DNA of 64,000 nt from Syntrophorhabdales bacterium (GTDB taxonomy: Bacteria > Desulfobacterota > Syntrophorhabdia > Syntrophorhabdales > WCHB1-27): positions 115 through 64,114 of the forward strand of contig DATFYE010000101.1 of assembly GCA_035315185.1 (NCBI GenBank). Direction: 5' to 3'. Below, in pieces: positions 30,944-51,696 of the stretch. The first letter of the stretch is position 1. Each line of letters begins with the position of its first letter. The notes under the pieces are model-generated. The model saw only the letters and a program-made list of their open reading frames with translations, did no database searches and was not told the DNA's origin. The translations under genes and the position numbers were made by a program.

Positions 30944-31115
30944 ATGAGTTTTTCCAGCATTGTCTTTTGTTGCTAAGAGATGTCTTTAGCTATTATTGAG
31001 AACAAAATAGATTCTTGTCAAGTAATGTCACGACATAATGAGAGAAGCATGCTTGAGAATCCCGAAGGACATGGTGCTTAAACCTTGAAGATTTCCGAAT
31101 TCGTGCTGAAGTTTG

Positions 31116-37530: not shown

Positions 37531-37593
37531 CGGACACTTTATTTCTTGCAACCTAAACAATATGCAAAAGAATTTCTTAAGGCTGCCTCGGTA

Positions 37594-39099: not shown

Positions 39100-41088
39100 A
39101 TGAAAAACCTTACAGCGTTGAAAGCTTCCGAAACCCGGTACCGGAGACTCTTCGAAACAGCCCAGGACGGGATCCTGATCCTCGACGCAGAAACGGGACA
39201 GATAGATGACGTGAACCCGTTCCTGATAGATATGCTGGGCTATACCTACAAAGATTTCCAGGGAAAGAAGCTCTGGGAGATAGGTGAATTCAAAGACATC
39301 CAGGCAAGTAAAGAGGCGTTCAGGGAATTGCAGGATAGAGGGTATGTGCGTTACGACGATTTGCCGCTGGAAACAAAAAAGGGGCGGAACATCAGGGTGG
39401 AGTTTGTGAGCAATACCTATCAGGTTAACCATCACAAAGTTATCCAGTGCAATATTCGGGATATCACCAATCGAAAACATGTGGACCATGAAGTTCGGGA
39501 AGCCCACTCCTACGCCGAAGCGATGATCGACACGGTGCGCGAACCCCTTCTGGTTTTGGATGAACACCTGAAGGTGCTCTCCGCCAGCCGCAGTTTCTAT
39601 GATACCTTCAGGGTAGCTCCCGGCGAGACTGTGGGAAACTTTATCTACGACCTCGGAAACGGACAGTGGAGTATCCCCCGGCTCCGGAAATTGCTTCGGG
39701 ACATCCTTAAAAATACCAAACTCGATAACTATGAGGTTGACCACCTGTTCCCGACTATCGGCCACAAATTCATGCGTCTCAATGCACGGCGCATTTACAA
39801 GGAAAACGTCGGCACAAAGATGATCCTCCTTGCCATTGAAGATGTCACGGACTTGAAGCAGAGAGATGAAGCATTGAAAGCTTCTGAAACCCGGTACCGG
39901 AGACTCTTCGAAACAGCCCAGGACGGGATCCTGATCCTCGACACAGAAACGGGGCAGATAGATGACGTGAACCCATTCCTCGTAGATATGTTGGGCTATG
40001 CATACAAAGATTTCCTGGGAAAGAAGCTCTGGGAGCTCGGTGCGTTCAAAAACATCGAGGCAAGCAAGGTGGCGTTTACGAAACTACAGCGCAAAGGGTA
40101 TGTGCGTTACGACGATTTGCCGCTCACCACAAAAGACGGACGGGAGATTGACGTAGAATTTGTCAGCAATGTTTATCAGGTTAACCATCACAAAGTCATC
40201 CAGTGCAATGTCCGCGACACTACCGACAGAAAACGGGCTGAAGAAGAACTCCGGAAGGCACACGATGAACTGGAAAGACGGGTAACAGAGCGGACCGCTC
40301 AACTGTCTGAATCGAACAGGCTGCTCAGGCAGGAAATCGCTGCACGTAAAATCGTTGAAGAACAACTGGAGGACTCCCGGGAACGACTGCGCTACCTCAG
40401 CACCCATTTGCGGAAGGTAAGAGAACAGGAAAGGACGTCTCTCTCGCGCGAACTCCACGACGAATTGGGGCAGGTCCTAACCGGCATAAAAATGGATGTC
40501 GCATGGATAGGAAGAAAAACACCGGAAGACAATACACTGATCGTTGAAAGAGTGAATTCGTTACTCACGCGTCTTGATGATGCCATCCTTTCCGTTCAGA
40601 GAATTTCGATGGCATTGAGGCCGCCGGCCCTGGATGATTTTGGCCTGCAGGAAGCGATGAAGCTGGCAGCGGAAGATTTCGAAAAGAGGACAAAGGTTGC
40701 CTGCGAAATTATTTCAAAGCCACAGAAGATACTCCTCGAAGGGGAAATTTCTACAGAGGCCTTTCGTATTTTTCAGGAAGCGCTTACCAACATCGCCCGG
40801 CATGCAGGCGCGCAGAAGGTCACCGTATCCTTGCGACACGCAGGAGATACGTTCAGTATGGAAGTCAGAGATAACGGGAGGGGCATTACAAAAAAAGAGA
40901 TCAGAGATCCGAAGTCTATCGGATTAACGGGCATGCGCGAACGAGCGTTTGCCATAGGGGGAACTCTGACCGTTACCGGCACGCGGGGAAAAGGGACGAC
41001 CGTTACCTTGAGCGTTCCGCTCAGTGAAGGGAAAGAAGAGCCTGACATACGAAAGCGTCGCCCGAAGAAACCGCCGAAGAAGGGATGA
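39100..41088 (+). CDS. multi-PAS sensor histidine kinase (HisKA_3/NarX-type)
   Basis: Three PAS-like modules and a coiled coil. H-box SRELHDELGQ. HATPase_c N and G boxes (EALTNIARHA, DNGRGI, GLTGMRERA). Confidence 0.9.
   Translation: MKNLTALKASETRYRRLFETAQDGILILDAETGQIDDVNPFLIDMLGYTYKDFQGKKLWEIGEFKDIQASKEAFRELQDRGYVRYDDLPLETKKGRNIRVEFVSNTYQVNHHKVIQCNIRDITNRKHVDHEVREAHSYAEAMIDTVREPLLVLDEHLKVLSASRSFYDTFRVAPGETVGNFIYDLGNGQWSIPRLRKLLRDILKNTKLDNYEVDHLFPTIGHKFMRLNARRIYKENVGTKMILLAIEDVTDLKQRDEALKASETRYRRLFETAQDGILILDTETGQIDDVNPFLVDMLGYAYKDFLGKKLWELGAFKNIEASKVAFTKLQRKGYVRYDDLPLTTKDGREIDVEFVSNVYQVNHHKVIQCNVRDTTDRKRAEEELRKAHDELERRVTERTAQLSESNRLLRQEIAARKIVEEQLEDSRERLRYLSTHLRKVREQERTSLSRELHDELGQVLTGIKMDVAWIGRKTPEDNTLIVERVNSLLTRLDDAILSVQRISMALRPPALDDFGLQEAMKLAAEDFEKRTKVACEIISKPQKILLEGEISTEAFRIFQEALTNIARHAGAQKVTVSLRHAGDTFSMEVRDNGRGITKKEIRDPKSIGLTGMRERAFAIGGTLTVTGTRGKGTTVTLSVPLSEGKEEPDIRKRRPKKPPKKG
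39118..39480 (+). repeat. PAS module duplication, copy 1
   Basis: Encodes LKASETRYRRLFETAQDGILILDAETGQIDDVNPFL...HHKVIQCNIRD. Near-identical to 39874..40236. Confidence 0.85.
39874..40236 (+). repeat. PAS module duplication, copy 2
   Basis: About 10 mismatches in the first 160 or so aligned nt by hand count versus copy 1. Divergence is higher in the second half. Confidence 0.85.
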
Positions 41089-41091
41089 TCG

Positions 41092-41724
41092 ATGCTTCGT
41101 GTCGTTATTGCCGATGACCACCCGGTCGTGCTCAAAGGCCTGAAAGAGATTCTTTCGGAAGGCTTCGACAAGGTGCTACTTGATGAAACCACCACGGGTT
41201 ATGAGCTTCTACAGAATGTTCAGAAAAATCAGTACGATTTGGTCCTTCTCGATATTTCTCTTCCTGACATAAATGGGCTGGAAGTCCTTAAAGAAATTAA
41301 AAAGAAAAAACCGAAACTCCCCGTCCTTATCATAAGCATGTATCCCGAAGAGCAATACGCACTCCGTGCCATGAAGGCCGGGGCACAGGGTTATCTCACA
41401 AAACGCAGTGCATCGGATGAGCTGGTGCTGGCGGTACGTAAAATTTTGTCCGGCAAGAGATATATCAGCCCGGCATTTGCCGAAAAGATGCTGTATGACT
41501 TCGAGTCGAATGCAGAAAAACCTCCTCACGAACGACTCTCCGATCGAGAGCTTCAGGTGCTCGGTATGATCGGCGGAGGAAAGGCAGTGAATCAAATCGC
41601 AGAAGAGCTCCACGTGAGTGCAAACACCGTAAGGACCTATCGGACCCGCATTTTGGAAAAGATCGGTGTGAAAGGAACCAGCGAATTGATTCATTATGCC
41701 GTCACGCACAGCCTGGCAGAATAA
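41092..41724 (+). CDS. NarL/LuxR-family response regulator
   Basis: REC domain (VVIADDH, DLVLLDISLPD, K in the KAGAQGYL region). C-terminal LuxR HTH (LSDRELQVL..IAEELHVSANTVRTYR). Confidence 0.9.
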   Translation: MLRVVIADDHPVVLKGLKEILSEGFDKVLLDETTTGYELLQNVQKNQYDLVLLDISLPDINGLEVLKEIKKKKPKLPVLIISMYPEEQYALRAMKAGAQGYLTKRSASDELVLAVRKILSGKRYISPAFAEKMLYDFESNAEKPPHERLSDRELQVLGMIGGGKAVNQIAEELHVSANTVRTYRTRILEKIGVKGTSELIHYAVTHSLAE

Positions 41725-41848
41725 AAAGAGCCTTTCAGTAAGACAATCACTCATGTTCCGCATTTTTATTAAAAGCTTACCGTGTTCAAGAGCCTTACAC
41801 GGCGAACAACAGTGCATATAATTTAGATAAGTAATTGTCCGTCACGGA

Positions 41849-43291
41849 GTGAAAGCCATGAGAGCAAAACGAAAAAAGAGTCTGATGATCGCGGGCGGTG
41901 TTGTCGTCCTGATCGTAATCGCTGCGCTTGTGGCTGTCCTCCTATTCGATATCAATTCCTACAAGTCGAAGATCGAAACCGCTGCCTCCGGGGCGACCGG
42001 CCTGGATGTCAGAATCAAGGGGAGGATGGGACTCTCTTTCTTTCCCTTTGGTGTATCGGCGAAGGATATCCATGTTGCCAACAAGGGGGCAGAAATCCTC
42101 TCCCTTGAACGCCTCAAACTGCGGGTGGAGTTGATGTCCCTGCTGAAGAAGCAACTCAACGTGACCGGTTGCGAGCTTGTCAGGCCGGCCGTCGCGATCG
42201 TGAAGGACGCTGAGGGGAAATACAATTTCGAAAGTACTCAAAAAATATCGACTGAAGGGTGGCTGGGAACAGCTTCCGGTTTGCATGAGCTCAAGCTGTC
42301 TAAGGGGGCGCTTGTCTATCTTGACAAGAAGACGGGTGTAAAAACCGAGTTGAAAGAAATCAATCTGGCTATCGGGGATCTATCGGTAGGGGATACCTCA
42401 GGTGACATTATCAAAAACGTCTCATTCACGGGAAGCTTCGACTGCAAGGAGTTACTGCAAAAGGATCTCAGGATCGAGAACCTCAAGGCTCCCGTGAAGG
42501 CGGACAAAGGAGTATTCTCCCTCAAACCCCTTACCATGGACGTCTTCGACGCGAAGGGTGAAGGAGATCTCACGGCAGACGAGTCTGCTTCCGACATTGC
42601 GTATAAACTCAACGTGAAGGTGTCAAACCTAGACTTCGAAAAACTTGAGGAGTTCTTCGGCACAAAGAAAGTGATCGGCGGGAAGGGTGAACTCTCTGCC
42701 TCCCTGACGGTGAAAGAAAAGGGAGGGCGTATTCTGATGAGCAACCTGGACGGTACGTTCGCTCTCCGGGGCGATGATCTCGTCACGTATACTATGGACC
42801 TCGACAAAGTCCTCACAAAGTATGAAACGAGCCAGAAGTTCCACCTCGCCGACGTGGTCGCTTTCTTCTTCGTCGGTCCTCTTGGTACGGTTGCGCTCAA
42901 GGGGTACCGCTACGGGGACTTTTACTACCAGGCCCAGGGAGGACAGGGCGCCATCACCCAGTTTATCTCCCACTGGAAGATACAGAACGGTGAGGCCGAG
43001 GCTGCGGACTGCGCCCTCGCGACGCACCATAATCGAGTTGCTCTTATTGGCAAGCTCAATCTTGTCAGCGAGCGATTCGACCATGTAACCGTGGCGCTTC
43101 TCGATGACAAGGGATGCCCAACCTTCAAACAAACCATCAACGGTTCCTTTGACAGTCCCCGTGCGGGCACCGTGACCGGGGTCGAGTCTCTTGCCGGCCC
43201 ATTTTTTGATCTTTACAGGAAGGCAAAACGTTTTGCTCAGGCCGGCAAATGCGAGGTCTTCTATAACGGTGCCGTGCAGCAACCCCGCTGA
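41849..43291 (+). CDS. AsmA family protein
   Basis: N-terminal TM anchor followed by FDINSYKSKIETAASGATGLDVRIKG, typical of AsmA. The start could be GTG 41849 or ATG 41858. Confidence 0.7.
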   Translation: MKAMRAKRKKSLMIAGGVVVLIVIAALVAVLLFDINSYKSKIETAASGATGLDVRIKGRMGLSFFPFGVSAKDIHVANKGAEILSLERLKLRVELMSLLKKQLNVTGCELVRPAVAIVKDAEGKYNFESTQKISTEGWLGTASGLHELKLSKGALVYLDKKTGVKTELKEINLAIGDLSVGDTSGDIIKNVSFTGSFDCKELLQKDLRIENLKAPVKADKGVFSLKPLTMDVFDAKGEGDLTADESASDIAYKLNVKVSNLDFEKLEEFFGTKKVIGGKGELSASLTVKEKGGRILMSNLDGTFALRGDDLVTYTMDLDKVLTKYETSQKFHLADVVAFFFVGPLGTVALKGYRYGDFYYQAQGGQGAITQFISHWKIQNGEAEAADCALATHHNRVALIGKLNLVSERFDHVTVALLDDKGCPTFKQTINGSFDSPRAGTVTGVESLAGPFFDLYRKAKRFAQAGKCEVFYNGAVQQPR

Positions 43292-43407
43292 CACGCATTC
43301 TCTTGTTTCCCTAACCTTTTCTTTTTCCACTATTTCAGCTTAGCAGTAATTATTATGCTTGTGTTGCGAATAACTATACATCCTTAAGGTGAGAAAACGT
43401 TTCCGAT

Positions 43408-43474
43408 GCAATTCGGGTAGCAAGAATGATGACATGAAGATTGTTGTTTATGGGACAGACAGAGAACATACAGC
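43408..43474 (+). repeat. stress-leader element copy E (internally deleted)
   Basis: GCAATTCGGGTAGCAAGAATGATGACA..ATTGTTGTTTATGGGACAGAC. It shares the 5' variant with copy D. About 105 nt upstream of ATG 43580. Confidence 0.55.
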
Positions 43475-43579
43475 CTGCTAGAATTCATAGTTACCATAAA
43501 CGGGTGGAGAGAACGAGCGCTCCCCTGAAACGCCTCTGCGTGTTGAGACGCAGAGAGTAAACTCATAAGGAGACAGATC

Positions 43580-44026
43580 ATGAAACGAAGTACCCGTCAG
43601 TTCATTGTTGCGGTGTCGATCCTTGCCTTTATCGTTCTCGTAGGTACCACTCTCTCGCTGGCAGCCTCTAAGGCACCGACTCCAAAGGTCGTTAGTGTCG
43701 AGGAACGTATCAAAACGCTTCATACCGCGCTCAATATCACCCCGGAACAGGAAGAGTTATGGAATAACGTCGCGCAGGTGATGCGGGACAATTCGAAGAC
43801 GATGGAGGCGCTCATCGCCGCACGGTCAGCAAAAGCAGGCACCACGAACGCGGTCGAAGATTTCAAGTCCTATGGCGAAATTACCCAGGCGCATGCAGAC
43901 GGCATCCAGAAATTCATCCCAGTCTTCGAGGCCCTCTACAACAACATGTCGGACGCCCAGAAGAAGAATGCCGACACCGTATTCGCACAACGCCACCAGG
44001 CGAAGTCAAAGGCCAAGGGCAAATGA
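43580..44026 (+). CDS. periplasmic Spy/CpxP-like (LTxxQ-type) protein
   Basis: Signal peptide. LNITPEQEELWNNV and later MSDAQKKNADTVF repeats resemble LTxxQ motifs. AAGGAGA RBS. Confidence 0.55.
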   Translation: MKRSTRQFIVAVSILAFIVLVGTTLSLAASKAPTPKVVSVEERIKTLHTALNITPEQEELWNNVAQVMRDNSKTMEALIAARSAKAGTTNAVEDFKSYGEITQAHADGIQKFIPVFEALYNNMSDAQKKNADTVFAQRHQAKSKAKGK

Positions 44027-44061
44027 CCGCGACTGCCACAACGTAAGAACGGGAGGACACT

Positions 44062-44334
44062 ATGAAAATCAAGAGTTTTAGTTCAATGGTCGGCAAGATC
44101 GCGATGGCGCTCGTCTTCGCCTCAGCGATCGGCGGTATGTTCATCGCGCCGGCGTTCGGCAGAGATAACGATAGACGCGGAGGGCATGAGGAGCGCGGCC
44201 GGTACGAGCACGGTCGTCGTGTGTATCACCCCCGTACCTACTACGGGGCACCTGTCTATGCGCCACCACCGGTCGTCTATGCCCCGGCTCCGTCACCGGG
44301 CATCAGCCTCGTCTTCCCCATCCATATACGGTAG
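44062..44334 (+). CDS. small secreted Arg/His/Tyr/Pro-rich protein
   Basis: GGGAGGA RBS and a signal peptide. Low-complexity RGGHEERGRYEHGRRVYHPRTYYGAPVYAPPPVVYAP. Confidence 0.5.
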   Translation: MKIKSFSSMVGKIAMALVFASAIGGMFIAPAFGRDNDRRGGHEERGRYEHGRRVYHPRTYYGAPVYAPPPVVYAPAPSPGISLVFPIHIR

Positions 44335-44379
44335 GGAATACGCAGCCGTAGGCCGCTTGAGGGCTCGGGGCCTCGGTAC
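44298..44379 (+). repeat. 80-nt repeat, copy 1 (overlaps the 3' end of 44062..44334)
   Basis: GGGCATCAGCCTCGTCTTCCCCATCCATATACGGTAGGGAATACGCAGCCGTAGGCCGCTTGAGGGCTCGGGGCCTCGGTAC. Confidence 0.75.
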
Positions 44380-44484
44380 CCCACGACGTCCCCTGGATGC
44401 ACGGGCTTCACCATGAAGGACCTGTGTGTGGTCGTCTTACCGAAACAGGTATGCAGAACAAGACCCGAAAAGGAGGTACAAACC

Positions 44485-45132
44485 ATGCATCATAAAGCCT
44501 TGTTGTTCACTACCCTTATGTTTCTTCTTATCATGGCCCCTGTTTTTTCTCCGGCCTCAAGAGCCCAGGCCGCCCGAGAACCATCCGTCAAAGCCGATGA
44601 GCCGGGATCTCACTTCCAAAAAGCCGTTGAGCTCTTCGTAAAGAAAGACTTGAAAGCAGCTGCATCCGAGATTCGAAAAGGGGCAGGATTTCTCAAGCGG
44701 AAAGCAAAGAGCGCCACAAAGGAGGGCAAGGAAGGCCTCAGTGCGTCGGCTCAGGAACTAGAGAAATTGGCTAAGGACGTCGAAAGAGGGGGCGTGACCT
44801 CTGAGAAGCAACTCAAGGATACCTTCGCGAGATCATACGAAGCCTTATCGAATCACGAATACCGGAGGGCTTCTGAATCCTGGGCTAAGAAAAAGACACG
44901 AGAGACCGGCCAAGCTCTCACGAATGCAGCGGCCGACATGGAGCAGGCTGCAAAGTGGTCTGGCCGCGAGCTGGAAACAGGCACGGCAGATACCATAGAC
45001 TACGCACGTGCGGTTGGCGGTAAACTCATAAAGGGAGCCGGCTGGACCGCGGATGAGGTGGACAAGGGTATCAAAGGAATAAGCAGCGCACTTTCAAAGT
45101 TTGGAGAAAAGGTGGAGCCCAAAGATAAGTAA
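44485..45132 (+). CDS. secreted helical Lys/Glu/Ala-rich protein (hypothetical)
   Basis: AAAGGAGG RBS before ATG 44485. Signal peptide ending SRAQA. The ORF-track N-terminal extension was discarded. Confidence 0.5.
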   Translation: MHHKALLFTTLMFLLIMAPVFSPASRAQAAREPSVKADEPGSHFQKAVELFVKKDLKAAASEIRKGAGFLKRKAKSATKEGKEGLSASAQELEKLAKDVERGGVTSEKQLKDTFARSYEALSNHEYRRASESWAKKKTRETGQALTNAAADMEQAAKWSGRELETGTADTIDYARAVGGKLIKGAGWTADEVDKGIKGISSALSKFGEKVEPKDK

Positions 45133-45170
45133 TGAGCGCTGGTATGCCGGGCTTTGTTGTGTTAATCGTC

Positions 45171-45250
45171 GGGCATCAGTCTCGTCTACCCCATCCACAT
45201 TCGATAGGGAATCCTCAGCGTCGACCGCTCGAGTGCTCAGGGCTCGGTAC
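45171..45250 (+). repeat. 80-nt repeat, copy 2
   Basis: GGGCATCAGTCTCGTCTACCCCATCCACATTCGATAGGGAATCCTCAGCGTCGACCGCTCGAGTGCTCAGGGCTCGGTAC. In one frame it reads SGISLVYPIHIR-stop, against PGISLVFPIHIR-stop in copy 1. Confidence 0.75.
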
Positions 45251-45336
45251 TCTCAGACAGAGCCGAAGCCCCTTGCTTACGTATGGGTGGGTCATATATT
45301 CGTATGCCAGGTGACAAACAAAAGAAAGGAGAGGGG

Positions 45337-46155
45337 ATGACTTCCCTCGACCGTATACATAGCTCGAACCCACTGATAACCGTGCTTACACTCATCGGCC
45401 GGGGGACCTTCCGTCTTCTCGGCAATTTCGGTGCAATGGCCATTTTCTTTTCCCTGGCCTTCATCAACATCTTCCGAAGAAAGCAACTCCGGGAGATCGT
45501 AAAGCAGGTATATTATATCGGCGCCACATCGTCCTTGATCGTAATGCTGGTGGGCCTTTTCACCGGTATGGTGCTCGGATTGCAGCTTTTCTACACCCTG
45601 GTAAAGTTTGGCTCTGTAGGGGCTCTCGGGTCTGCCGTATCCCTCTCCCTTGTCAGGGAAATGGGGCCGGTCCTCGCCGCCATTATGATCACTGCCCGCG
45701 CCGGCTCCGGCATGGCCGCGGAGATCGGGATCCTTCGCATCTCGGAGCAGGTCGATGCCCTCTACGCAATGAGGGTCGATCCCGTACGGTACCTTATCAG
45801 CCCGCGGATCGCTGCCTCAATCATCAGCTTTCCCTTGCTCACCGCCTTTTTTGACCTGATCGGGATCATCGGAGGGTATCTCACCGGTGTCCTGCTGTTG
45901 GGAACAAATGGAGGCACGTACTTTTATCGTGTGCACTCTTCCCTGAATATGGTGGACGTCAGAGGAGGTTTCATCAAAGCCCTGGTTTTTGCCGCAATCG
46001 TCTCCTGCGTCTGCTGCTTCCAGGGGTATTTCTGCCATATGCGGACCGGCGGTTACGGAGCCAAGGCCGTCGGCCTTGCTACCATCTCGGCAGTCGTGCT
46101 CTCGTGTGTGATGATCCTCATTGCAGATTACGTCTTAACGTCGTTTCTCATGTAG
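45337..46155 (+). CDS. mlaE: MlaE-family ABC permease
   Basis: Pattern REMGPVLAAIMITARAGSGMAAEIG.LRISEQVDAL is typical of MlaE/Ttg2B. GGAGAGGGG RBS before ATG 45337. Confidence 0.88.
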   Translation: MTSLDRIHSSNPLITVLTLIGRGTFRLLGNFGAMAIFFSLAFINIFRRKQLREIVKQVYYIGATSSLIVMLVGLFTGMVLGLQLFYTLVKFGSVGALGSAVSLSLVREMGPVLAAIMITARAGSGMAAEIGILRISEQVDALYAMRVDPVRYLISPRIAASIISFPLLTAFFDLIGIIGGYLTGVLLLGTNGGTYFYRVHSSLNMVDVRGGFIKALVFAAIVSCVCCFQGYFCHMRTGGYGAKAVGLATISAVVLSCVMILIADYVLTSFLM

Positions 46156-46163
46156 GCCCGGCG

Positions 46164-47411
46164 ATGGCCATTCCTTTAATAGAATTCAGAAACATCACCA
46201 AGCGCTTTGGCGACAAGACTGTACTCGACAAGGTCAACCTCAAAATTTATGAAAACCAGATCACGACGATTATCGGGAAGAGCGGCACGGGCAAAAGCGT
46301 GCTTCTCAAACATATCATCGGACTTCTCAAGCCGGACGAAGGCGCAATTCTCTTTCGCGGAAAGCCCGTTGCTGCCATGAAGAAGAATGAATGGGAGGAT
46401 TACAGGAATGGGGTCGCCTACCTGTTCCAGAACAATGCGCTCCTCGACTCGATGACGGTCTTCGATAACGTTGCCTTTCCCCTCCAACAGACGACGAATC
46501 TCGACAAGATCGAGATCGAAAAAAGGGTAGCGAAAAAGATCGAGGACCTGGAACTTACCGAAGCGGTCGATAAGTATCCTTCGGAACTCTCGGGCGGGAT
46601 GCAGAAACGGGTAGCCCTGGCGCGGGCCCTGGTGACGGACCCGAAGATCATACTCTTTGACGAGCCGACCACGGGTCAGGACCCTATTCGGAAGAACATG
46701 ATCCTCTCCATGATCGTCCATTACAGGAGAAAGTTCGGGTTTACCGCCGTACTGATCAGCCATGACATTCCCGACGTTTTCTTTATTTCGGATCGGCTTG
46801 TCATTCTCTGGGAAGGAGCGGTCGGCTTTGAAGGGACCTACGAAGAGGCCGTCAGGCTGAAACTTCCCATGATCGACGAGTTTCTCCGCAGCCTTGAGGG
46901 TTTCCAGGACGAGCTGACGGGTCTGCTTTCCCGGGAGGCGTTCAAGGGGCAATACGCCGCGATGCTGGGGGGCAGCGCCGGGATATCAACCGCTTCCGCC
47001 GCGCTTTTCAGCGTCGAATTCGATCTACTGCACGAGGCGCTGGGACCGCAGGCGGCCGTGGAAGTCCTCAGGGCACTTGGCGAATACGTGAACCGCCGCT
47101 TCAAACCCATGGGCGGCTTCTCGGCCCGTCACAGCAGGGATCAGATCCTGACCATATTCCCTAACACGAGCCCTGATCAGGCGCGGCAACTGGTGGCCGA
47201 CTTTGTGCCGGAATTGAACCAGGAGGCCCTTGCCCGAATTCAGACTATTGCACAGGCAAAGATGGGTGCACAGGCATGTCCCGAGATCCAGGTCAGTGCG
47301 GGAATCACGGAAGTCTCTTCTACTGACGAGATCGATCAGATAATCGTAAAAGCTGAAGCGAACCAACAGATTGTCGCAACACATCAAGGCGGCTCCGGAG
47401 GAAGCGAGTGA
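46164..47411 (+). CDS. MlaF-type ABC ATPase fused to a degenerate GGDEF-like domain
   Basis: Walker A GKSGTGKS, signature LSGGMQKRVALARAL, Walker B ILFDEPTTGQD. The C-terminal 170 aa or so align to GGDEF (DELTGLLSREAF .. FSVEFDLL .. GFSARHSRDQILTIFPNT .. VSAGITEV), with HSRDQ in place of GGDEF. Confidence 0.85.
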   Translation: MAIPLIEFRNITKRFGDKTVLDKVNLKIYENQITTIIGKSGTGKSVLLKHIIGLLKPDEGAILFRGKPVAAMKKNEWEDYRNGVAYLFQNNALLDSMTVFDNVAFPLQQTTNLDKIEIEKRVAKKIEDLELTEAVDKYPSELSGGMQKRVALARALVTDPKIILFDEPTTGQDPIRKNMILSMIVHYRRKFGFTAVLISHDIPDVFFISDRLVILWEGAVGFEGTYEEAVRLKLPMIDEFLRSLEGFQDELTGLLSREAFKGQYAAMLGGSAGISTASAALFSVEFDLLHEALGPQAAVEVLRALGEYVNRRFKPMGGFSARHSRDQILTIFPNTSPDQARQLVADFVPELNQEALARIQTIAQAKMGAQACPEIQVSAGITEVSSTDEIDQIIVKAEANQQIVATHQGGSGGSE

Positions 47412-47896
47412 TGAAAAAATATTCAATGGAAACGGTTGTCGGCGTTTTCGTGGTGATCGGTCTCATATGTGTGGGATATATGACTGTGAAGCTCGGCAAA
47501 CTCTCGCTGTTTGGAGAGGAGACCTACCCGCTTAAAGCCCGGTTTGCGTCGGTCTCCGGACTCAGGGTTGGTAGCGCGGTCGAAGTCTACGGCATCGAGG
47601 TAGGCAGCGTGATGCACCTCGGCATAGACGCTGAGAGACAGATGGGGGTCGTTGATATGAACATCAACAAGGGCGTGAAGGTTTACGACGATGCGGGGGC
47701 AACCATCAAGACCTCCGGACTCATCGGGGATAAGTATGTGAAAATCGATCCCGGAGGAGCGGGCGTTGTCCTGAAACCGGACGGCATGATCACGCAGACC
47801 TCTGTGCCGGCGGATATAGAAGATCTTATAGGCAAGTATGCATTCGGGGACGTGAAGAAGGAACCTGACAAAGCCCCGGAAAAACCTGCCAAGTGA
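47408..47896 (+). CDS. mlaD: MlaD (MCE domain) protein
   Basis: N-terminal TM anchor. MCE pattern YPLKARFASVSGLRVGSAVEVYGIEVGSV..GLIGDKYVKIDPG. ATGA overlap with the ATPase gene. Confidence 0.85.
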   Translation: MMKKYSMETVVGVFVVIGLICVGYMTVKLGKLSLFGEETYPLKARFASVSGLRVGSAVEVYGIEVGSVMHLGIDAERQMGVVDMNINKGVKVYDDAGATIKTSGLIGDKYVKIDPGGAGVVLKPDGMITQTSVPADIEDLIGKYAFGDVKKEPDKAPEKPAK

Positions 47897-47960
47897 TCGA
47901 GGAGAGCATCATGAATAAATGGCTGGCCAGGGAGGCCCTTCGCAAAAAGGTGGGCAAGGG

Positions 47961-50633
47961 ATGAGCCGCATGCACGTGATGTTCAATCCCAAAACAATAG
48001 CTCTGATCGGCGCAACCGACAAGGAAGGCGCCGTGGGACGGACTATCCTGGAGAACCTGCTCCGGTCAAAAGAGAGGAGGATATTTCCGGTAAACCCCCG
48101 TACGAACAAAGTATTGGATGTGGAGAGCTATCCCACCATCGCAGGCGTACCCGGGCATGTGGATCTGGCCGTTGTGGCAACTCCTGCCCGGTCAGTGCCC
48201 GAAGTGGTTGAGGAATGCGGCCAGGCAGGCGTAGAGGGGGTAGTAATAATCTCCGCCGGGTTTAAAGAGATTGGTGAAGAAGGCACGCGACTGGAGAGCG
48301 AAATAGAACGAATCAGAAAAAAATACGGGATGCGTATTTTGGGACCAAACTGCCTCGGTTTCGTACGGCCTCCCCTGGATTTTAATGCGACGTTTCTCAG
48401 GGGTAAGCCTCCTGCCGGAAATATCGCTTTCATCTCTCAGAGCGGTGCCCTCGGCAGCGCGATACTCGATTGGGCGGTCAGCGCCGGGGTAGGCTTTAGC
48501 ATGTTTGCATCACTCGGCTCCATGATCGATGTCGACTTTGGCGACATGATCGATTTTCTGGGAGATGACGAGGCCACCAGGAGCATCCTGATCTATATGG
48601 AGGGTGTGGGCAACGCGAGAAAATTTATGAGTGCGGCCAGGGCGTTCGCCCGCCGCAAACCTATCATTATTTTGAAGCCGGGGCGATTTGCACAGAGTGC
48701 AAGGGCAGCCCATTCCCACACCGGCGCTATGGCAGGGGACGACGCGGTATACGAAGCGGCCTTCAGGAGGGCCGGCGCCGTGAGGGTCGGCGAAATAGCG
48801 GAACTCTTCGATGCTGCCGAGGTTCTTGATTCGAAGAGGCTGCCGGCCGGTCCGCGGCTCGCCATAGTAACATCCGCCGGCGGACCTGGTGTGATGGCCA
48901 CCGACGCGCTTATTCACCTGGGTGGGGAGCTGGCGGAACTCTCTGGCGAGAGCATGAAGCAACTCAATGCATTGTTGCCGCCTTACTGGAGTAAGGCCAA
49001 TCCTGTCGACCTGCTTGGAGACGCAACCGTCGACAGGTTCACGAAATCGCTCGCTATATGCCTCGGTGATCCCAAAGTAGACGGGGTGCTTGTCATTTAC
49101 GTGCCCATGGACTCTGCCCCTTCAACCCAGGTTGCGCAAGCGGTGGCCGATTGTGCAAAAAATGCCTGGAAGCCTGTCATTGCAACGTGGATGGGGGCAG
49201 AAGACGTGGAAGAGGGGAGACGCATTTTTGTTGAGAATAGCATCCCGCACTACGACACCCCGGAGGAGGGTGTCCGAACTTATGTGAATATGTGTAGGTA
49301 TAAGAGACATCTCGACCAGCTCTATGAGACTCCTGACGAGTTGCCGGCGCAGAAAGCGCCCTCGAAAGATCACCTGAAAGAGCTTCTCAAGATCGTCCTC
49401 AAGGAAGGACGAACGCTTCTCAACGAGGAAGAGTCCAAGGATTTTTTGATGACCTACGGCATCCCGGTGACGCCGGCGCAGCTTGCCCGGGATTCCGAAG
49501 CGGCGGTACGCATCGCGGAAAAGGTGGGCTATCCGGTCGTTATCAAGGTCGTCTCGCCTGACATCTCCCACAAAAGCGATGTGGGCGGCGTCATCATGGG
49601 GATCGATTCGAGCGCAGCCCTCAAAGAAGCCTACGAGAAGCTGATGGAAAGGGTGAAGCAACGCGCCCCGGCGGCGGCCATAACGGGCGTAGCCGTCGAG
49701 AAGATGTTTACCGATATTGATTATGAGCTCATTCTCGGGACCAAGAAGGATAAGGACTTCGGTTCTGTTATCCTCTTCGGGATGGGCGGGACTATGGCGG
49801 AGTTCATCAAAGATTTTTCAATTGGACTCCCGCCGCTCAACCAGACATTGGCAAAGATGCTGATGCAGGACACCAATGTATATAAAATGCTCCAGGGCTT
49901 TCGGGGCAAACCGCCGGCTGATTTTGAAGGGCTCGAGGAAATCCTTGTCAATTTTTCGAACCTTATCGTCGACTTTCCCGAAATAGCTGAAATCGACATA
50001 AATCCTCTTGCCATAGCGAATGGCAAAGCCTCAGCGCTTGACGCACGAATCGTTATTAACAAAGATTATGACGCTATTGGTCGATCGGCCTACCCGCACT
50101 TGATCATCACTCCTTATCCGACCAAGTACATTACGCCCTGGAAACTGTCCGATGGCACCGAAGTGCTTCTGAGGCCCATACGGCCTGAAGACGAGCCCGC
50201 GGAGCACGAGATGCTCGCTTCGTTGTCTCAAAAAACATTGAGGACCAGGTTCTTCTCCCTTATCAAAGATATATCTCATGAGTGGCTTATCCTTTTCTGT
50301 AATATCGACTACGACCGGCACATGGCGATAGTTGCGGAGATGGAGGAAAATGGAACGAAAAAGATGGTAGGGGTTGCACGACTCATTATGAACCAGGACC
50401 TGACGTCCGGCGAACTGGCTGTTCTCGTGCAGGATAGGTTCCAAGGGAAACACCTTGGGTCCAAATTCGTAGAGGTTCTCGTCGGGATAGCCCGGGAAAG
50501 GGGCCTCGAGGAAGTCCGGGCGGATGTCCTTACCGAGAATGAGAGCATGCTCAACGTCTTCAGGCGGTTGGGGTTCACGACTCATTGGGCTGTGGGCGGC
50601 ACGAGCGAAGCCGTGCTGAAGCTGAAAGAATAA
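47961..50633 (+). CDS. Pat-like protein: ADP-forming acyl-CoA synthetase domains fused to a C-terminal GNAT
   Basis: CoA-binding N-terminus (PKTIALIGATDKEG), a ligase-CoA domain, an ATP-grasp domain (GYPVVIKVVSPDISHKSDVGGV) and a GNAT core (VQDRFQGKHLGSKFVE). Start ATG 47961 chosen. Confidence 0.88.
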   Translation: MSRMHVMFNPKTIALIGATDKEGAVGRTILENLLRSKERRIFPVNPRTNKVLDVESYPTIAGVPGHVDLAVVATPARSVPEVVEECGQAGVEGVVIISAGFKEIGEEGTRLESEIERIRKKYGMRILGPNCLGFVRPPLDFNATFLRGKPPAGNIAFISQSGALGSAILDWAVSAGVGFSMFASLGSMIDVDFGDMIDFLGDDEATRSILIYMEGVGNARKFMSAARAFARRKPIIILKPGRFAQSARAAHSHTGAMAGDDAVYEAAFRRAGAVRVGEIAELFDAAEVLDSKRLPAGPRLAIVTSAGGPGVMATDALIHLGGELAELSGESMKQLNALLPPYWSKANPVDLLGDATVDRFTKSLAICLGDPKVDGVLVIYVPMDSAPSTQVAQAVADCAKNAWKPVIATWMGAEDVEEGRRIFVENSIPHYDTPEEGVRTYVNMCRYKRHLDQLYETPDELPAQKAPSKDHLKELLKIVLKEGRTLLNEEESKDFLMTYGIPVTPAQLARDSEAAVRIAEKVGYPVVIKVVSPDISHKSDVGGVIMGIDSSAALKEAYEKLMERVKQRAPAAAITGVAVEKMFTDIDYELILGTKKDKDFGSVILFGMGGTMAEFIKDFSIGLPPLNQTLAKMLMQDTNVYKMLQGFRGKPPADFEGLEEILVNFSNLIVDFPEIAEIDINPLAIANGKASALDARIVINKDYDAIGRSAYPHLIITPYPTKYITPWKLSDGTEVLLRPIRPEDEPAEHEMLASLSQKTLRTRFFSLIKDISHEWLILFCNIDYDRHMAIVAEMEENGTKKMVGVARLIMNQDLTSGELAVLVQDRFQGKHLGSKFVEVLVGIARERGLEEVRADVLTENESMLNVFRRLGFTTHWAVGGTSEAVLKLKE

Positions 50634-50698
50634 TTGGGCTGTGATCGTGGGAAAGAACGCCTTGACTCTTCTATTTTGAGGAACTACTTTTCTTCGTA

Positions 50699-51436
50699 AT
50701 GATAGAAGCACGTTATCTCAGCACCCTCTTTCTCCTTCTCCTCGTGCCGGCTCAAGGCCTGGCCTTCCCTGACACGATCGAGAGTGGCCCGGCGGGCCGG
50801 AGCCACGTTGAGACATACCATTACGAGGCTGTGGCGGCAGGTAAAGAGAACGACAAGGAAGAAATCGAGCTTGCTTTTTCTTTCGAGGAAAACAGCGCTG
50901 CATATGCTTCAACGATAGTCTCTGCAAAGTCAGACGAGCGCATAACCATCAACATGACCAAGGAAGGGAATTTGATTTCAGGGGCCAGGAGTCTCCGCAA
51001 AAGCCCTGGAGGCCCCACCGAGGAGAAGATATGGAGAGACGGAAGAACGGCATACGTCCAGCAAACCTCCGGAACGGATAAAAAGACCATACAGCTGGAT
51101 ATTCCCGAAGGCAGAACTCTGGCTATTGAGGGCTCCCTCCTTGTGCTCCTCAGGTTTTTCCCTTACGACAGTACCACCCGATGGGATCTTTTCATGATTG
51201 ATTTCTCGGGAGAATCCATTACCGCCACTGCCCGTCAGGCCGGCATTGAGCGTATCACCGTGCCTGCGGGCGAATTCTCCTGTTACCGGATGGAGGTCCT
51301 TATCCATACCTTCATCCTGAGCCCAAAAATAGTCTGTTGGGTTACCACGGAGAAACCCCATTTCGTGGTAAAGAGCGAGGGGAAGAGAAGCCTGCTTAGC
51401 CCCAAATATATCACTATGTTAATTGGCAAGCAGTGA
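50699..51436 (+). CDS. hypothetical secreted protein
   Basis: Signal-like N-terminus. Beta-rich composition. No family recognised. Confidence 0.4.
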   Translation: MIEARYLSTLFLLLLVPAQGLAFPDTIESGPAGRSHVETYHYEAVAAGKENDKEEIELAFSFEENSAAYASTIVSAKSDERITINMTKEGNLISGARSLRKSPGGPTEEKIWRDGRTAYVQQTSGTDKKTIQLDIPEGRTLAIEGSLLVLLRFFPYDSTTRWDLFMIDFSGESITATARQAGIERITVPAGEFSCYRMEVLIHTFILSPKIVCWVTTEKPHFVVKSEGKRSLLSPKYITMLIGKQ

Positions 51437-51583
51437 GAAAGCGATTGACGGTATCGGTGACGCGGCAAACTCCGATAGCGAAAGACTGATCTGCCGCATT
51501 AAGCCTGTTGTTAGGTACGCAGGTTATTGCGGAACCCGAGCACAAAAATCAATAGTTGACTGAGAAGAAAAGGCTAATTCTGG

Positions 51584-51696
51584 TCCATATCCCCGTTGTA
51601 AAAAAGACGACACGCTCGTACACGAAACCGCTACAAAATAATTGTTGGTTCTGGGACAGACATGAGGGAGTGTCTGCTGTATCATAAATACAGAGG
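51584..51696 (+). repeat. stress-leader element copy C (homology to copy A extends to about 51760)
   Basis: TCCATATCCCCGTTGTAAAAAAGACGACACGCTCGTACACGAAACCGCTACAAAATAATTGTTGGTTCTGGGACAGAC, with hairpins CAGACA/TGTCTG and CTGTAT/ATACAG. The downstream block GCCTCTTGTACATCAATCT matches GCCTCTTATACATCGATCT in copy A. Confidence 0.85.

What the first reader, a model, noticed from the sequence alone, without database searches (positions are those of the whole stretch)
46164..47411. MlaF-type ATPase carrying a C-terminal degenerate GGDEF domain
In a compact mlaE-mlaF-mlaD operon (ATGA coupling to mlaD; no mlaB or mlaC seen here), the ATPase has an extension of about 170 aa. The extension aligns block by block with diguanylate cyclase domains (DELTGLLSREAF; FSVEFDLL; LGPQAAVEVL; GFSARHSRDQILTIFPNTSPDQA; VSAGITEV). 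The GG(D/E)EF signature is replaced by HSRDQ, so it is probably catalytically dead and could act as a nucleotide- or c-di-GMP-sensing or protein-interaction module. It sits where MlaB-type STAS regulators normally act on MlaF. I do not know of a described Mla system regulated this way.
Basis: partly seen in the sequence, partly recalled or inferred. Interest (0 to 1): 0.6.

Follow-up and report, generated by a model that had tools for sequence, protein, structure and literature searches.

The report
MlaF lipid-transporter ATPase with dead GGDEF domain
The motor protein of a bacterial outer-membrane lipid-recycling (Mla) transporter carries a conserved, enzymatically dead copy of a signalling-enzyme (GGDEF) domain on its tail, apparently in place of the separate helper protein (MlaB) and tail extension that E. 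coli uses, and nobody seems to have described this arrangement.

Summary
Window 46164-47411 (+) is one 415-aa ORF. It has an intact MlaF-type ABC ATPase (aa 1-235) joined by a highly conserved short hinge to a GGDEF-fold domain of about 170 aa, and it sits between mlaE and mlaD.

- **Domain evidence.** Pfam GGDEF scores 26.3 bits (cut-off 23.8). The AlphaFold model of the domain (pLDDT 83) matches only GGDEF domains in the PDB.
- **Not an artefact.** 76 of 80 related genome loci carry the same single-ORF fusion in mlaE-mlaF*-mlaD(-mlaC-mlaA) operons. These are Syntrophorhabdales-type Desulfobacterota and Thermodesulfovibrionales/Nitrospirota. The domain's dN/dS is 0.14-0.31.
- **Degenerate domain.** GGDEF is replaced by S-R-D-Q-I, the I-site RxxD by K-P-M-G, the metal Asp by Ser, and the guanine contacts by His and Val. 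It is therefore neither a cyclase nor a canonical c-di-GMP receptor.
- **What is missing.** There is no MlaF C-terminal "handshake" and no STAS/MlaB gene nearby.
- **Most likely role (inferred).** The domain is a built-in C-terminal dimerising or regulatory module for the MlaF dimer.
- **Relatives.** Rare divergent MlaF-GGDEF proteins keep the RxxD site, which hints at an ancestral c-di-GMP-responsive form.
- **Literature.** I found no published description.

Verdict: a new variant of a known system, of moderate interest.

The parts
45283..46155 (+). mlaE permease gene. The stop codon lies 8 nt before the mlaF* ATG.
   Evidence: Pfam MlaE PF02405 E 1.4e-69; NCBIfam perm_MlaE_1 at 224.7 bits. 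It sits immediately upstream of the fusion in nearly all 80 related loci.
46164..47411 (+). mlaF* gene: a 415-aa fusion of a MlaF-type ABC ATPase and a degenerate GGDEF-fold domain (stop codon included).
   Evidence: Full-length AF2 model has pLDDT 84.1 and pTM 0.60. There are 76 full-length orthologs.
46164..46868 (+). ABC nucleotide-binding domain (aa 1-235), predicted to be catalytically competent.
   Evidence: Walker A, Q-loop, LSGGM signature, Walker B DEPT and H-loop SHD are invariant in 77 of 77 copies. The closest structures are E. coli, P. aeruginosa and A. baumannii MlaF (37-40% identity, TM 0.82-0.87). The best NCBIfam model is MlaF PRK11831.
46275..46298 (+). Walker A motif GKSGTGKS (aa 38-45).
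   Evidence: G38, K39, S40, G41, G43 and K44 are invariant in 77 of 77 copies.
46587..46601 (+). ABC signature LSGGM (aa 142-146), with the Met that is typical of Mla/TGD-type ATPases.
   Evidence: M146 is invariant in 77 of 77 copies. Kolich et al. 2020 (PMC7367683) note Met at this position in Mla- and TGD-like systems.
46866..46925 (+). Hinge: P235-MIDEFLRSLEGFQ-DELTGL254. It joins the end of the NBD directly to the GGDEF 'DxLT' entry motif and replaces the E. coli MlaF C-terminal 'handshake' extension.
   Evidence: P235, E239, F240, S243, G246, D249, E250, L251, T252 and G253 are invariant or near-invariant, and there are no indels across the 77 copies. PDB MlaF chains align only up to '...P-x-x-x-x-F-L'. 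Linker pLDDT is about 61-69.
46905..47387 (+). GGDEF-fold domain (aa 248-408), degenerate.
   Evidence: Pfam PF00990 at 26.3 bits against GA 23.8. PDB profile hits are LapD 3pjw at E 8.6e-6 plus several diguanylate cyclases. AF2 and Foldseek results are. dN/dS is 0.14-0.31.
47010..47060 (+). Former metal and guanine-binding segment: S283 replaces the metal Asp, H290 replaces the guanine-contact Asn, and V299 replaces the guanine-contact Asp.
   Evidence: HMM alignment to the GGDEF cyclase 3ign. Column frequencies: S283 in 57 of 77, position 290 variable, position 299 V/I/L.
47103..47114 (+). Position of the inhibitory I-site (RxxD), which reads K314-P315-M316-G317 here.
   Evidence: Alignment to 5m3c, whose RDVD aligns to this segment. 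G317 occurs in 76 of 77 copies, and position 314 is G/N/S/K.
47133..47147 (+). Position of the GG(D/E)EF signature, which reads S324-R325-D326-Q327-I328 here. It lies inside the family's most conserved block, GGFSARHSRDxILTI(L/F)P.
   Evidence: Alignments to 5m3c, 3ign and 6tts. F319, S320 and R322 are invariant, R325 occurs in 74 of 77, and no copy has GG at this position.
47408..47896 (+). mlaD (short, E. coli-like MCE protein), overlapping the mlaF* stop codon.
   Evidence: Pfam MlaD E 4.8e-18; TIGR04430 at 133.5 bits. It is always downstream of the fusion.
41849..43291 (+). Context: an AsmA-family (lipid-transport) gene in the conserved neighbourhood.
   Evidence: Pfam AsmA E 9.7e-30. It recurs near the fusion in L003, L004, L011, L043, L051, L054, L064 and L079.
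47919..50633 (+). Context: a 904-aa ADP-forming acyl-CoA synthetase-GNAT (Pat-like) gene starting 23 nt after mlaD. It occupies the place where orthologous loci have mlaC-mlaA followed by this gene.
   Evidence: Pfam CoA_binding, Succ_CoA_lig, ATP-grasp_5 and GNAT domains. Synteny is seen in L003, L004, L010, L012, L013, L019 and L022.

Best explanation
The gene encodes the ATPase subunit of an Mla-type (MlaE-MlaF-MlaD) phospholipid ABC transporter. The usual MlaF C-terminal 'handshake' tail is replaced by a covalently attached, catalytically dead GGDEF-fold domain.

Shown here:
- The ATPase motifs are intact.
- The C-terminal domain has the GGDEF fold.
- That domain lacks the GG(D/E)EF signature, the metal and guanine ligands, and the RxxD I-site.
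- The fusion, its hinge and a remodelled hairpin (GGFSARHSRD) are conserved under purifying selection across two phyla.
- No STAS/MlaB gene accompanies these operons.

Inferred:
- The transporter contains two MlaF subunits, so two GGDEF-like domains hang beneath the NBD dimer.
- They act as a built-in accessory module that holds or positions the two NBDs. In E. coli this job is done by the handshake extension together with MlaB.
- Through the rigid, invariant P-x3-EFL-x-S-x-EG-x-DELTG hinge, the module could couple its own association state to NBD closure, and so to ATPase and transport activity.
- This would work like the C-terminal regulatory domains of MetN, ModC and MalK.
- If a ligand or partner exists, the best candidate binding site is the conserved basic hairpin (R322, H323, R325) on the former active-site face.
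For: - **Identity of the two domains:**
- **Intact ATPase:** all motifs are invariant in 77 of 77 copies.
- **Degeneracy of the A-site and I-site:**
- **Conserved fusion:** 113 species-level genomes were confirmed, and 76 of the 80 fetched loci hold a single ORF, always mlaE-mlaF*-mlaD and usually followed by mlaC-mlaA.
- **Purifying selection on the domain:** dN/dS 0.14-0.31, against 0.11-0.17 for the NBD. Mean identity is 59% against 78%.
- **Hinge:** invariant and free of indels.
- **No CTE:** PDB MlaF chains align only to the end of the NBD.
- **No MlaB:** no STAS family was found among the window genes scanned. None recurs among 98 small ORFs flanking 37 operons. The operon genes abut each other.
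- **Precedent from E. coli:** the MlaF CTE is essential, and a GCN4 dimerising zipper largely rescues its deletion (PMC7367683). MlaB is needed for stable MlaF association with the complex (PMC7367683). PMC5016091 (listed, abstract only seen) also addresses the auxiliary proteins.
- **MlaB distribution:** MlaB is only sparsely distributed among diderms (PMC10665443).
- **Other lineages:** some fuse two MlaF-like NBDs in tandem (520-580 aa, two ABC stretches). This fits a recurrent need to stabilise the MlaF dimer.
- **Architectural analogue:** MetN (an NBD plus a ferredoxin-like C-terminal regulatory domain) is among the top full-length structural matches.
Against: - Nothing here demonstrates dimerisation or any effect on the ATPase.
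- The monomer AF2 model gives no confident inter-domain geometry (pTM 0.60, linker pLDDT about 61-69), and no multimer prediction was possible.
- Isolated GGDEF domains are not strong dimers on their own (general knowledge).
- A STAS partner encoded elsewhere in the genome cannot be excluded from a 64-kb window and loci with 6-kb flanks.
- The very strong conservation of a basic hairpin at the old active site could instead mean a small-molecule ligand (rival 1).
Confidence: 0.5

Rival explanations
1. Ligand-sensing switch. The degenerate GGDEF domain binds a nucleotide or other anionic small molecule at a remodelled site, for example GTP, (p)ppGpp, or c-di-GMP through a non-canonical site. This binding gates the MlaF ATPase allosterically.
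For: - The most conserved block of the domain is the former active-site hairpin, with invariant F319, S320 and R322, near-invariant R325, and H323 in 61 of 77 copies.
- Divergent MlaF-GGDEF relatives (P0115, P0276, P0098, P0102, P0125) retain RxxD at the canonical spacing. P0115 and P0276 also keep the guanine-contact Asn and Asp. An ancestral c-di-GMP-responsive form is therefore plausible.
- PleD structures with ppGpp or pppGpp bound exist in the PDB (9g85, 9g86; listed).
- Degenerate GGDEF domains that sense nucleotides are known (general knowledge: PelD, PopA, Caulobacter PdeA, GdpP).
Against: In this family every canonical nucleotide contact is gone. RxxD is replaced by (G/N/S/K)-P-x-G, with Gly at the Asp position in 76 of 77 copies. 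The metal Asp is Ser, the guanine Asn position is variable, and the guanine Asp is V/I/L. No ligand can be inferred from sequence.
Confidence: 0.22
2. Evolutionary relic. The domain descends from a functional (c-di-GMP-related) GGDEF fusion and now serves only as a passive folding or stability appendage with no regulatory role.
For: The catalytic and I-site residues are lost. The domain evolves faster than the NBD (59% against 78% mean identity). The window's subclade has lost the otherwise conserved Cys409.
Against: dN/dS is 0.14-0.31. Many residues are invariant, including the hinge and hairpin, across two phyla. No truncated natural variants were found except an IS-disrupted copy (L067) and assembly frameshifts.
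Confidence: 0.12
3. An active but non-canonical diguanylate cyclase that couples lipid transport to c-di-GMP synthesis.
For: It has the GGDEF fold. An NBD dimer could in principle bring two cyclase domains together.
Against: The signature is SRDQI. The metal Asp, the guanine Asn and Asp, and both glycines are absent in all 77 copies.
Confidence: 0.02
4. Assembly or frameshift artefact that merged an mlaF gene with a separate GGDEF gene.
For: Some database entries list the domain as a protein of about 180 aa (P0016, P0045).
Against: Those entries come from frameshifted long-read contigs in which the three pieces tile one gene (L001). 76 independent genomes carry the same uninterrupted ORF with an identical junction. 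Composition across the gene is uniform.
Confidence: 0.01

Closest known systems
E. coli, A. baumannii and P. aeruginosa MlaF within MlaFEDB (PDB 6xgy, 6xbd, 6z5u, 7ch8)
   Same: The NBD is 34-40% identical with TM 0.82-0.87. It has the LSGGM signature and is encoded with mlaE and a short mlaD. In most relatives it is also encoded with mlaC and mlaA.
   Different: There is no 25-aa 'handshake' C-terminal extension and no STAS partner MlaB. Instead a GGDEF-fold domain of about 170 aa is fused after the NBD. The gene order is E-F-D-C-A rather than F-E-D-C-B. The NCBIfam MlaF equivalog score (193.9) is far below its cut-off of 441.
Degenerate, non-catalytic GGDEF domains of LapD (3pjw) and FimX (3hva)
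   Same: LapD is the best PDB sequence match to the domain profile (E 8.6e-6). Both appear among the fold matches. They have the GGDEF fold without the catalytic signature and play a structural or regulatory role within a larger protein (general knowledge).
   Different: LapD and FimX pair the domain with an EAL domain that binds c-di-GMP. Here there is no EAL domain, and the partner is an ABC ATPase.
I-site c-di-GMP receptors with degenerate GGDEF domains (PelD, PopA, SgmT)
   Same: A degenerate A-site in a GGDEF fold that is used as a regulatory module.
   Different: Those receptors depend on the RxxD I-site (general knowledge). The window protein has KPMG there. Only rare divergent MlaF-GGDEF relatives (P0115, P0276, P0098, P0102, P0125) keep RxxD.
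C-terminal regulatory domains of ABC importer ATPases (MetN C2, ModC and MalK TOBE domains)
   Same: A compact domain follows the NBD at the same position. In those proteins the domains dimerise beneath the NBDs and gate ATPase activity (trans-inhibition), as cited in PMC7367683. MetN is a top full-length structural hit.
   Different: The fold family is different (GGDEF/palm-like, not ACT-like or TOBE). The ligand is unknown. The transporter is an MCE-type lipid transporter, not a solute importer.
Tandem MlaF-like ABC-ABC proteins (about 520-580 aa, Myxococcota/Bradymonadia MAGs)
   Same: A MlaF-type NBD with a covalent solution that would keep two NBDs together.
   Different: They carry a second NBD rather than a GGDEF-fold domain. 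I did not examine them further.

Membership tests
MlaF (ATPase of the Mla/MCE phospholipid ABC transporter) | ABC NBD with intact Walker A, Q-loop, signature, Walker B and H-loop | tested here: met
   All motifs are present and invariant in 77 of 77 copies. Pfam ABC_tran E 9e-37.
MlaF (ATPase of the Mla/MCE phospholipid ABC transporter) | Encoded with, and presumably working with, the MlaE permease and the MCE protein MlaD | tested here: met
   mlaE lies 8 nt upstream and mlaD overlaps the stop codon. The same arrangement occurs in nearly all 80 loci.
MlaF (ATPase of the Mla/MCE phospholipid ABC transporter) | Closest sequence and structure relatives are experimentally characterised MlaF proteins | tested here: met
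   The best NCBIfam model is MlaF PRK11831. The top Foldseek PDB hits are E. coli, P. aeruginosa and A. baumannii MlaF.
MlaF (ATPase of the Mla/MCE phospholipid ABC transporter) | Reaches the NCBIfam equivalog cut-off for MlaF (441 bits) | tested here: not met
   It scores 193.9 bits. It is therefore an MlaF-type homolog, not an equivalog of proteobacterial MlaF.
MlaF (ATPase of the Mla/MCE phospholipid ABC transporter) | C-terminal 'handshake' extension of about 25 aa, and a STAS partner MlaB (E. coli paradigm) | tested here: not met
   The sequence after the NBD runs straight into the GGDEF fold. No STAS gene was found among the scanned window genes or recurring in 37 related operon neighbourhoods. 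A distant genomic MlaB cannot be excluded.
GGDEF domain (Pfam PF00990) | Profile match above the gathering threshold, and the GGDEF fold | tested here: met
   26.3 bits against 23.8. Relatives score up to 55.8 bits. The AF2 model's top 50 PDB hits are all GGDEF domains.
Diguanylate cyclase (active GGDEF enzyme) | GG(D/E)EF signature, a metal-binding Asp, and guanine-binding Asn and Asp | tested here: not met
   The signature is SRDQI. S283, H290 and V299 occupy those positions, and no canonical copy exists among the 77.
I-site c-di-GMP receptor GGDEF (PelD/PopA type) | RxxD motif five residues upstream of the signature | tested here: not met
   The motif is K314-P-M-G317, with G317 in 76 of 77 copies. 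It is met only in the divergent relatives P0115, P0276, P0098, P0102 and P0125.
ABC C-terminal regulatory domain (MetN/ModC/MalK type; functional analogy only) | The domain dimerises below the NBDs and binds a ligand that inhibits the ATPase | not testable with these tools
   Only monomer prediction was available, and the inter-domain geometry was not confident (pTM 0.60).

The most novel reading that the evidence does not exclude
MlaF-GGDEF fusions are a hitherto unrecognised class of second-messenger- or ligand-gated lipid transporters. In the I-site-retaining relatives (P0115, P0276, P0098, P0102, P0125), c-di-GMP would cross-link the two GGDEF-like domains under the MlaF dimer. This would switch retrograde phospholipid transport and tie outer-membrane lipid homeostasis directly to c-di-GMP signalling. 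The window's family is a derived branch in which the remodelled basic hairpin (FSARHSR) senses a different ligand or partner.
Probability: 0.2. Interest if true: 0.8.

Novelty: new variant of a known kind. Interest (0 to 1): 0.55.

Why it matters
How the Mla transporter's ATPase is controlled is an open question. In E. coli it needs the STAS protein MlaB and a unique 'handshake' tail, yet MlaB is absent from most diderm lineages (PMC10665443).

This finding shows that two phyla with E. coli-like Mla operons (short MlaD, MlaC, MlaA) solved the problem differently, with a fused dead GGDEF domain. That gives three things:
- a natural experiment on what the accessory module must do, whether dimer stabilisation or regulation;
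- a new, non-signalling use of the GGDEF fold;
- through the rarer I-site-retaining relatives, a concrete and testable candidate link between c-di-GMP and outer-membrane lipid transport.

It also matters for annotation. These proteins are sometimes labelled 'diguanylate cyclase', which is wrong for this family.

Tried and rejected
- **Stand-alone domain idea.** Hits of about 180 aa on long contigs (P0016, P0045) suggested a separate gene. L001 shows three frame-shifted pieces of one gene. L067 is an IS3-family insertion at the domain junction. Rejected.
- **Survey of the I-site-retaining class.** A profile search with their C-domains (A3) returned only ordinary REC- and PAS-GGDEF cyclases. It was uninformative for the survey.
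- **Search with P0115.** The full-length query was swamped by tandem ABC-ABC and plain MlaF-like proteins. It yielded only one further near-canonical fusion (P0276).
- **AFDB fold search.** The library was unavailable.
- **Full-length structure with ortholog alignment.** The fallback alignment gave good domains but an uncertain inter-domain arrangement, so there is no structural evidence for or against docking onto the MlaB-binding face.
- **Promoter and terminator scan of 44300-51600.** Counts were below the shuffle expectation, with nothing between mlaD and the downstream gene.
- **Literature.** Searches for MlaF+GGDEF, degenerate GGDEF+ABC+Mla, GGDEF+ABC ATPase+fused, and c-di-GMP+Mla gave no relevant description. 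The only recent paper holding both words cites MlaFEDB merely in its reference list.
- **Link between Cys409 loss and mlaC/mlaA loss.** I considered this and rejected it. The G409 subclade includes loci that retain mlaC and mlaA.
Full report
**1. The observation**

The window holds one uninterrupted ORF at 46104..47411 (+). The ATG at 46164 gives a 415-aa protein, and 76 full-length orthologs start at the same point. Pfam finds ABC_tran at aa 21-170 (E 9e-37). It finds GGDEF (PF00990) at aa 248-400, covering profile positions 3-150 of 161, at 26.3 bits. That is just above the curated gathering score of 23.8.

The upstream gene (45283-46155) is MlaE (Pfam E 1.4e-69). The downstream gene (47408-47896) is an E. 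coli-like short MlaD (TIGR04430 at 133.5 bits, cut-off 135).

There are two small corrections:
- By alignment to active cyclases, GGDEF corresponds to S324-R325-D326-Q327-I328, one register from 'HSRDQ'.
- The mlaF*/mlaD junction is GAG-TGA-TG, a 1-nt TGATG or 4-nt GTGA overlap, not ATGA.

Base composition is even across the gene.

**2. Is it really a GGDEF fold, and is the fusion real?**

An AlphaFold2 model of aa 236-415, built on 45 homologs, has mean pLDDT 83.3 and pTM 0.82. Its 50 best Foldseek matches in the PDB are all GGDEF domains: DgcB 6tts (E 1e-7, TM 0.70/0.73), SadC, GcbC, PleD, WspR, DgcZ, and the degenerate FimX and LapD domains. A profile of the family also hits PDB GGDEF sequences directly, with LapD's degenerate domain best at E 8.6e-6.

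The fusion is not an artefact:
- A homolog search with the C-terminal domain alone returned 70 proteins. Several of them read through the ABC-GGDEF junction.
- A scan of one genome per species (185,579 species) with the hinge peptide found 113 genomes encoding the domain.
- In the 80 loci fetched, 76 have a single ORF of about 415 aa containing both domains. It always lies between mlaE and mlaD, and mlaC and mlaA usually follow.
- The few 'stand-alone' 180-aa entries are frameshifted long-read assemblies whose three pieces tile one gene (L001), or an IS3-family insertion exactly at the junction (L067).

**3. Who has it?**

Record titles place the carriers in two groups. The first is Syntrophorhabdales/Syntrophorhabdaceae and other 'delta proteobacterium' MAGs. 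The closest to the window are L003 and L004 at 88% identity over the domain. The second is Thermodesulfovibrionales, Nitrospirota and Dissulfurispiraceae. A neighbour-joining tree separates these two groups. Several genomes carry two copies.

An exhaustive search of 1.84 billion cluster representatives found a wider set:
- Full-length fusions at 38-52% identity (P0071, P0072, P0076, P0077, P0080, P0081, P0089, P0092, P0093).
- About 35 MlaF-like proteins of 370-450 aa in the top 150. Seven of the ten I scanned give GGDEF matches at E below 0.01, scoring 21.8-130.6 bits.

One such cluster is from a Desulfohalobiaceae MAG. Sources name these proteins only 'ATP-binding cassette domain-containing protein', the KEGG-style 'phospholipid/cholesterol/gamma-HCH transport system ATP-binding protein', or occasionally 'diguanylate cyclase'.

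**4. Anatomy**

The NBD is intact. Walker A (GKSG[TS]GK), the Q-loop, LSGGM, Walker B (DEPT) and the H-loop (SHD) are invariant in 77 of 77 copies. The Met in LSGGM is a hallmark of Mla/TGD-type ATPases (PMC7367683). Structurally the NBD is closest to E. coli, P. aeruginosa and A. baumannii MlaF (34-40% identity, TM 0.82-0.87), then to mycobacterial MceG.

The NBD ends at P235. The next 18 residues (MIDEFLRSLEGFQDELTG) are almost invariant and free of indels, and they lead straight into the GGDEF 'DxLT' entry motif. The 25-aa 'handshake' extension of E. coli MlaF is therefore absent, because PDB MlaF chains align only to the P-x4-FL motif.

Every canonical functional site of the GGDEF-fold domain is lost:

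| Canonical site | In the window protein | Across the 77 copies |
|---|---|---|
| GG(D/E)EF signature | S324-R-D-Q-I328 | no copy has GG |
| I-site RxxD | K314-P-M-G317 | Gly at the Asp position in 76 of 77 |
| Metal Asp | S283 | S in 57 of 77 |
| Guanine-contact Asn | H290 | variable |
| Guanine-contact Asp | V299 | V/I/L |

A new conserved block has appeared instead: G317-G-F-S-A-R-H-S-R325, with F319, S320 and R322 invariant. It places basic residues on the former active-site hairpin.

The domain is under purifying selection in the window's own lineage. Its dN/dS is 0.14-0.31 against eight orthologs, compared with 0.11-0.17 for the NBD.

The full-length AF2 model folds both domains confidently (pLDDT 84.1). 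It does not fix their relative orientation (pTM 0.60, linker pLDDT about 61-69).

**5. Context**

In Syntrophorhabdales relatives the neighbourhood has a conserved order: PAS histidine kinase, LuxR-type response regulator, AsmA-family protein, LTXXQ (CpxP/Spy-like) protein, small secreted protein, mlaE, mlaF*, mlaD, (mlaC, mlaA), a Pat-like acyl-CoA synthetase-GNAT protein, and DUF3108.

The window and its ortholog L004 lack mlaC and mlaA at this locus, and the Pat-like gene starts 23 nt after mlaD. No MlaC or MlaA is encoded anywhere in the 64 kb. L004's genome has a second, complete mlaE-F*-D-C-A operon (L020), so the window's organism may have one too (inference).

No STAS/MlaB-like gene is present among the window genes scanned. 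None recurs among 98 small ORFs flanking 37 related operons, and the operon genes abut each other. Unfused 249-aa MlaF-like ATPases in the same genomes belong to separate operons with a long MlaD (L036, L056).

**6. How it most likely works**

Established facts from E. coli:
- The MlaF CTE handshake is essential.
- Forced dimerisation with a GCN4 zipper largely rescues its deletion.
- MlaB is required for stable association of MlaF with the complex.

These come from PMC7367683. MlaA, MlaB and MlaC are sparsely distributed among diderms (PMC10665443).

Given an intact ATPase, no CTE, no MlaB, an invariant rigid hinge and a selected but catalytically dead GGDEF fold, the best-supported reading is as follows. 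The domain is a built-in accessory module beneath the MlaF dimer. It stabilises or positions the two NBDs and may transmit a regulatory state to them. In function it would resemble MlaB plus the CTE, and in architecture the C-terminal regulatory domains of MetN, ModC and MalK. This mechanism is inferred and has not been shown (confidence about 0.5).

The main rival (about 0.22) is that the remodelled basic hairpin binds a small anionic ligand. The canonical nucleotide contacts are all missing, so c-di-GMP binding at an I-site is not supported for this family. The remaining rivals are weaker:
- Relic status: about 0.12.
- Cyclase activity: about 0.02.
- Artefact: about 0.01.

**7. A lead beyond the finding**

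Five divergent MlaF-GGDEF representatives retain RxxD at the canonical spacing before the hairpin: P0115 (RKSD...RFGGKEF), P0276 (RKSD...RFSRKEF), P0098 (RSSD), P0102 (RVAD) and P0125 (RGSD). In their mutual alignment (16-33% identity to the first sequence), the eight invariant residues include both I-site positions and the hairpin Arg. P0115 also keeps the guanine-contact Asn and Asp, and it lies in an mlaE-mlaF*-mlaD-mlaC/mlaA cluster (L083). These are plausible c-di-GMP-binding versions, which suggests the window's family derives from a c-di-GMP-responsive ancestor (inference). My attempt to survey this class further failed.

**8. Comparison and novelty**

The protein is an MlaF-type ATPase by motifs, context and closest structures. 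It is not an equivalog of proteobacterial MlaF (193.9 bits against a cut-off of 441), and it lacks the CTE/MlaB features. Its C-terminal domain belongs to the GGDEF fold family. It fails every test for a diguanylate cyclase and for an I-site receptor.

Five full-text searches found no description of an MlaF-GGDEF fusion or of any GGDEF or c-di-GMP link to Mla. I rate it a new variant of a known kind. The sequences are in databases under generic names, but the architecture and its implication for Mla regulation appear undescribed. Interest: 0.55.

**Limits**

- The genome census used one peptide pattern, so it is a lower bound.
- Taxonomy rests on record titles.
- No multimer modelling or AFDB search was available.

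Noticed in passing
window 47896-47919; compare L010, L012 and L013 (mlaD-mlaC-mlaA-Pat) and L004: The window's locus has lost mlaC and mlaA, which lie between mlaD and the Pat-like gene in orthologous Syntrophorhabdales loci. No MlaC or MlaA is encoded anywhere in the 64 kb. The closest ortholog's genome (L004) carries a second, complete mlaE-F*-D-C-A operon (L020).
   Followed up: partly
window 47277-47279 (C372) and 47388-47390 (G409); alignment of 77 copies: Two cysteines in the GGDEF-like domain are conserved across the family: C372 in 63 of 77 copies and C409 in 67 of 77. The window and its subclade (L003-L007) have Gly at 409. A 2+2 Cys site across a dimer (metal or redox) is conceivable but untested.
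   Followed up: partly
P0115 (L083 5001-6281), P0276, P0098, P0102, P0125: Rare divergent MlaF-GGDEF fusions keep the RxxD I-site at canonical spacing. P0115 and P0276 also keep guanine-contact residues, with signatures GGKEF and SRKEF. P0115 lies in an mlaE-F*-D-C/mlaA cluster. These are candidate c-di-GMP-binding Mla ATPases.
   Followed up: partly
P0073-P0075, P0079, P0277-P0371: Many MlaF-like proteins of about 520-580 aa contain two ABC domains in tandem. Source names include Myxococcota, Myxococcales and Bradymonadia MAGs, and JGI calls them MlaF. This is another covalent way to pair MlaF NBDs.
   Followed up: no
L067 1122-2296 (-) and 2363-2908 (+): An IS3-family transposase pair (orfA and orfB) sits exactly at the NBD/GGDEF-domain boundary of mlaF*. 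It leaves a 181-aa domain-only ORF in front of mlaD and no NBD or mlaE on the contig.
   Followed up: yes
L001 5294-6546; L002 3-1126: ENA long-read contigs (ERZ25039554, ERZ25039558) carry frameshifts that split mlaF* (and mlaC) into pieces. This explains the short 'GGDEF domain-containing protein' entries in protein databases.
   Followed up: yes
window 39100-45132: The conserved upstream neighbourhood contains a PAS histidine kinase (39100-41088), a LuxR-type response regulator (41092-41724), an AsmA-family lipid-transport protein (41849-43291), an LTXXQ (CpxP/Spy-like) protein (43580-44026), and two small secreted proteins of unknown function (44062-44334, 44413-45132). Together they look like an envelope-stress and lipid-homeostasis cluster.
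   Followed up: partly
window 47919-50633: A 904-aa ADP-forming acyl-CoA synthetase-GNAT fusion (Pat-like protein acetyltransferase architecture) starts 23 nt after mlaD, with no terminator-like site between them. It is syntenic with the mla operon in Syntrophorhabdales relatives.
   Followed up: partly
window 14070-38967: A lipid-centred gene set: a 2641-aa PKS/PUFA-synthase-like protein (NMO/ER-KS-AT-KR-DH; 21201-29126, minus strand); three B12-binding radical SAM enzymes (14070-15425 minus, 34724-36229 plus, 37546-38967 plus); a PLD/cardiolipin-synthase-like protein (31113-32543); a sulfatase-family protein (15422-17203 minus); and a second ABC ATPase (18297-19250 minus).
   Followed up: no
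window 46104-46163: The ORF formally extends upstream to a GTG at 46104, overlapping the end of mlaE. Ortholog N-termini support the ATG at 46164.
   Followed up: yes
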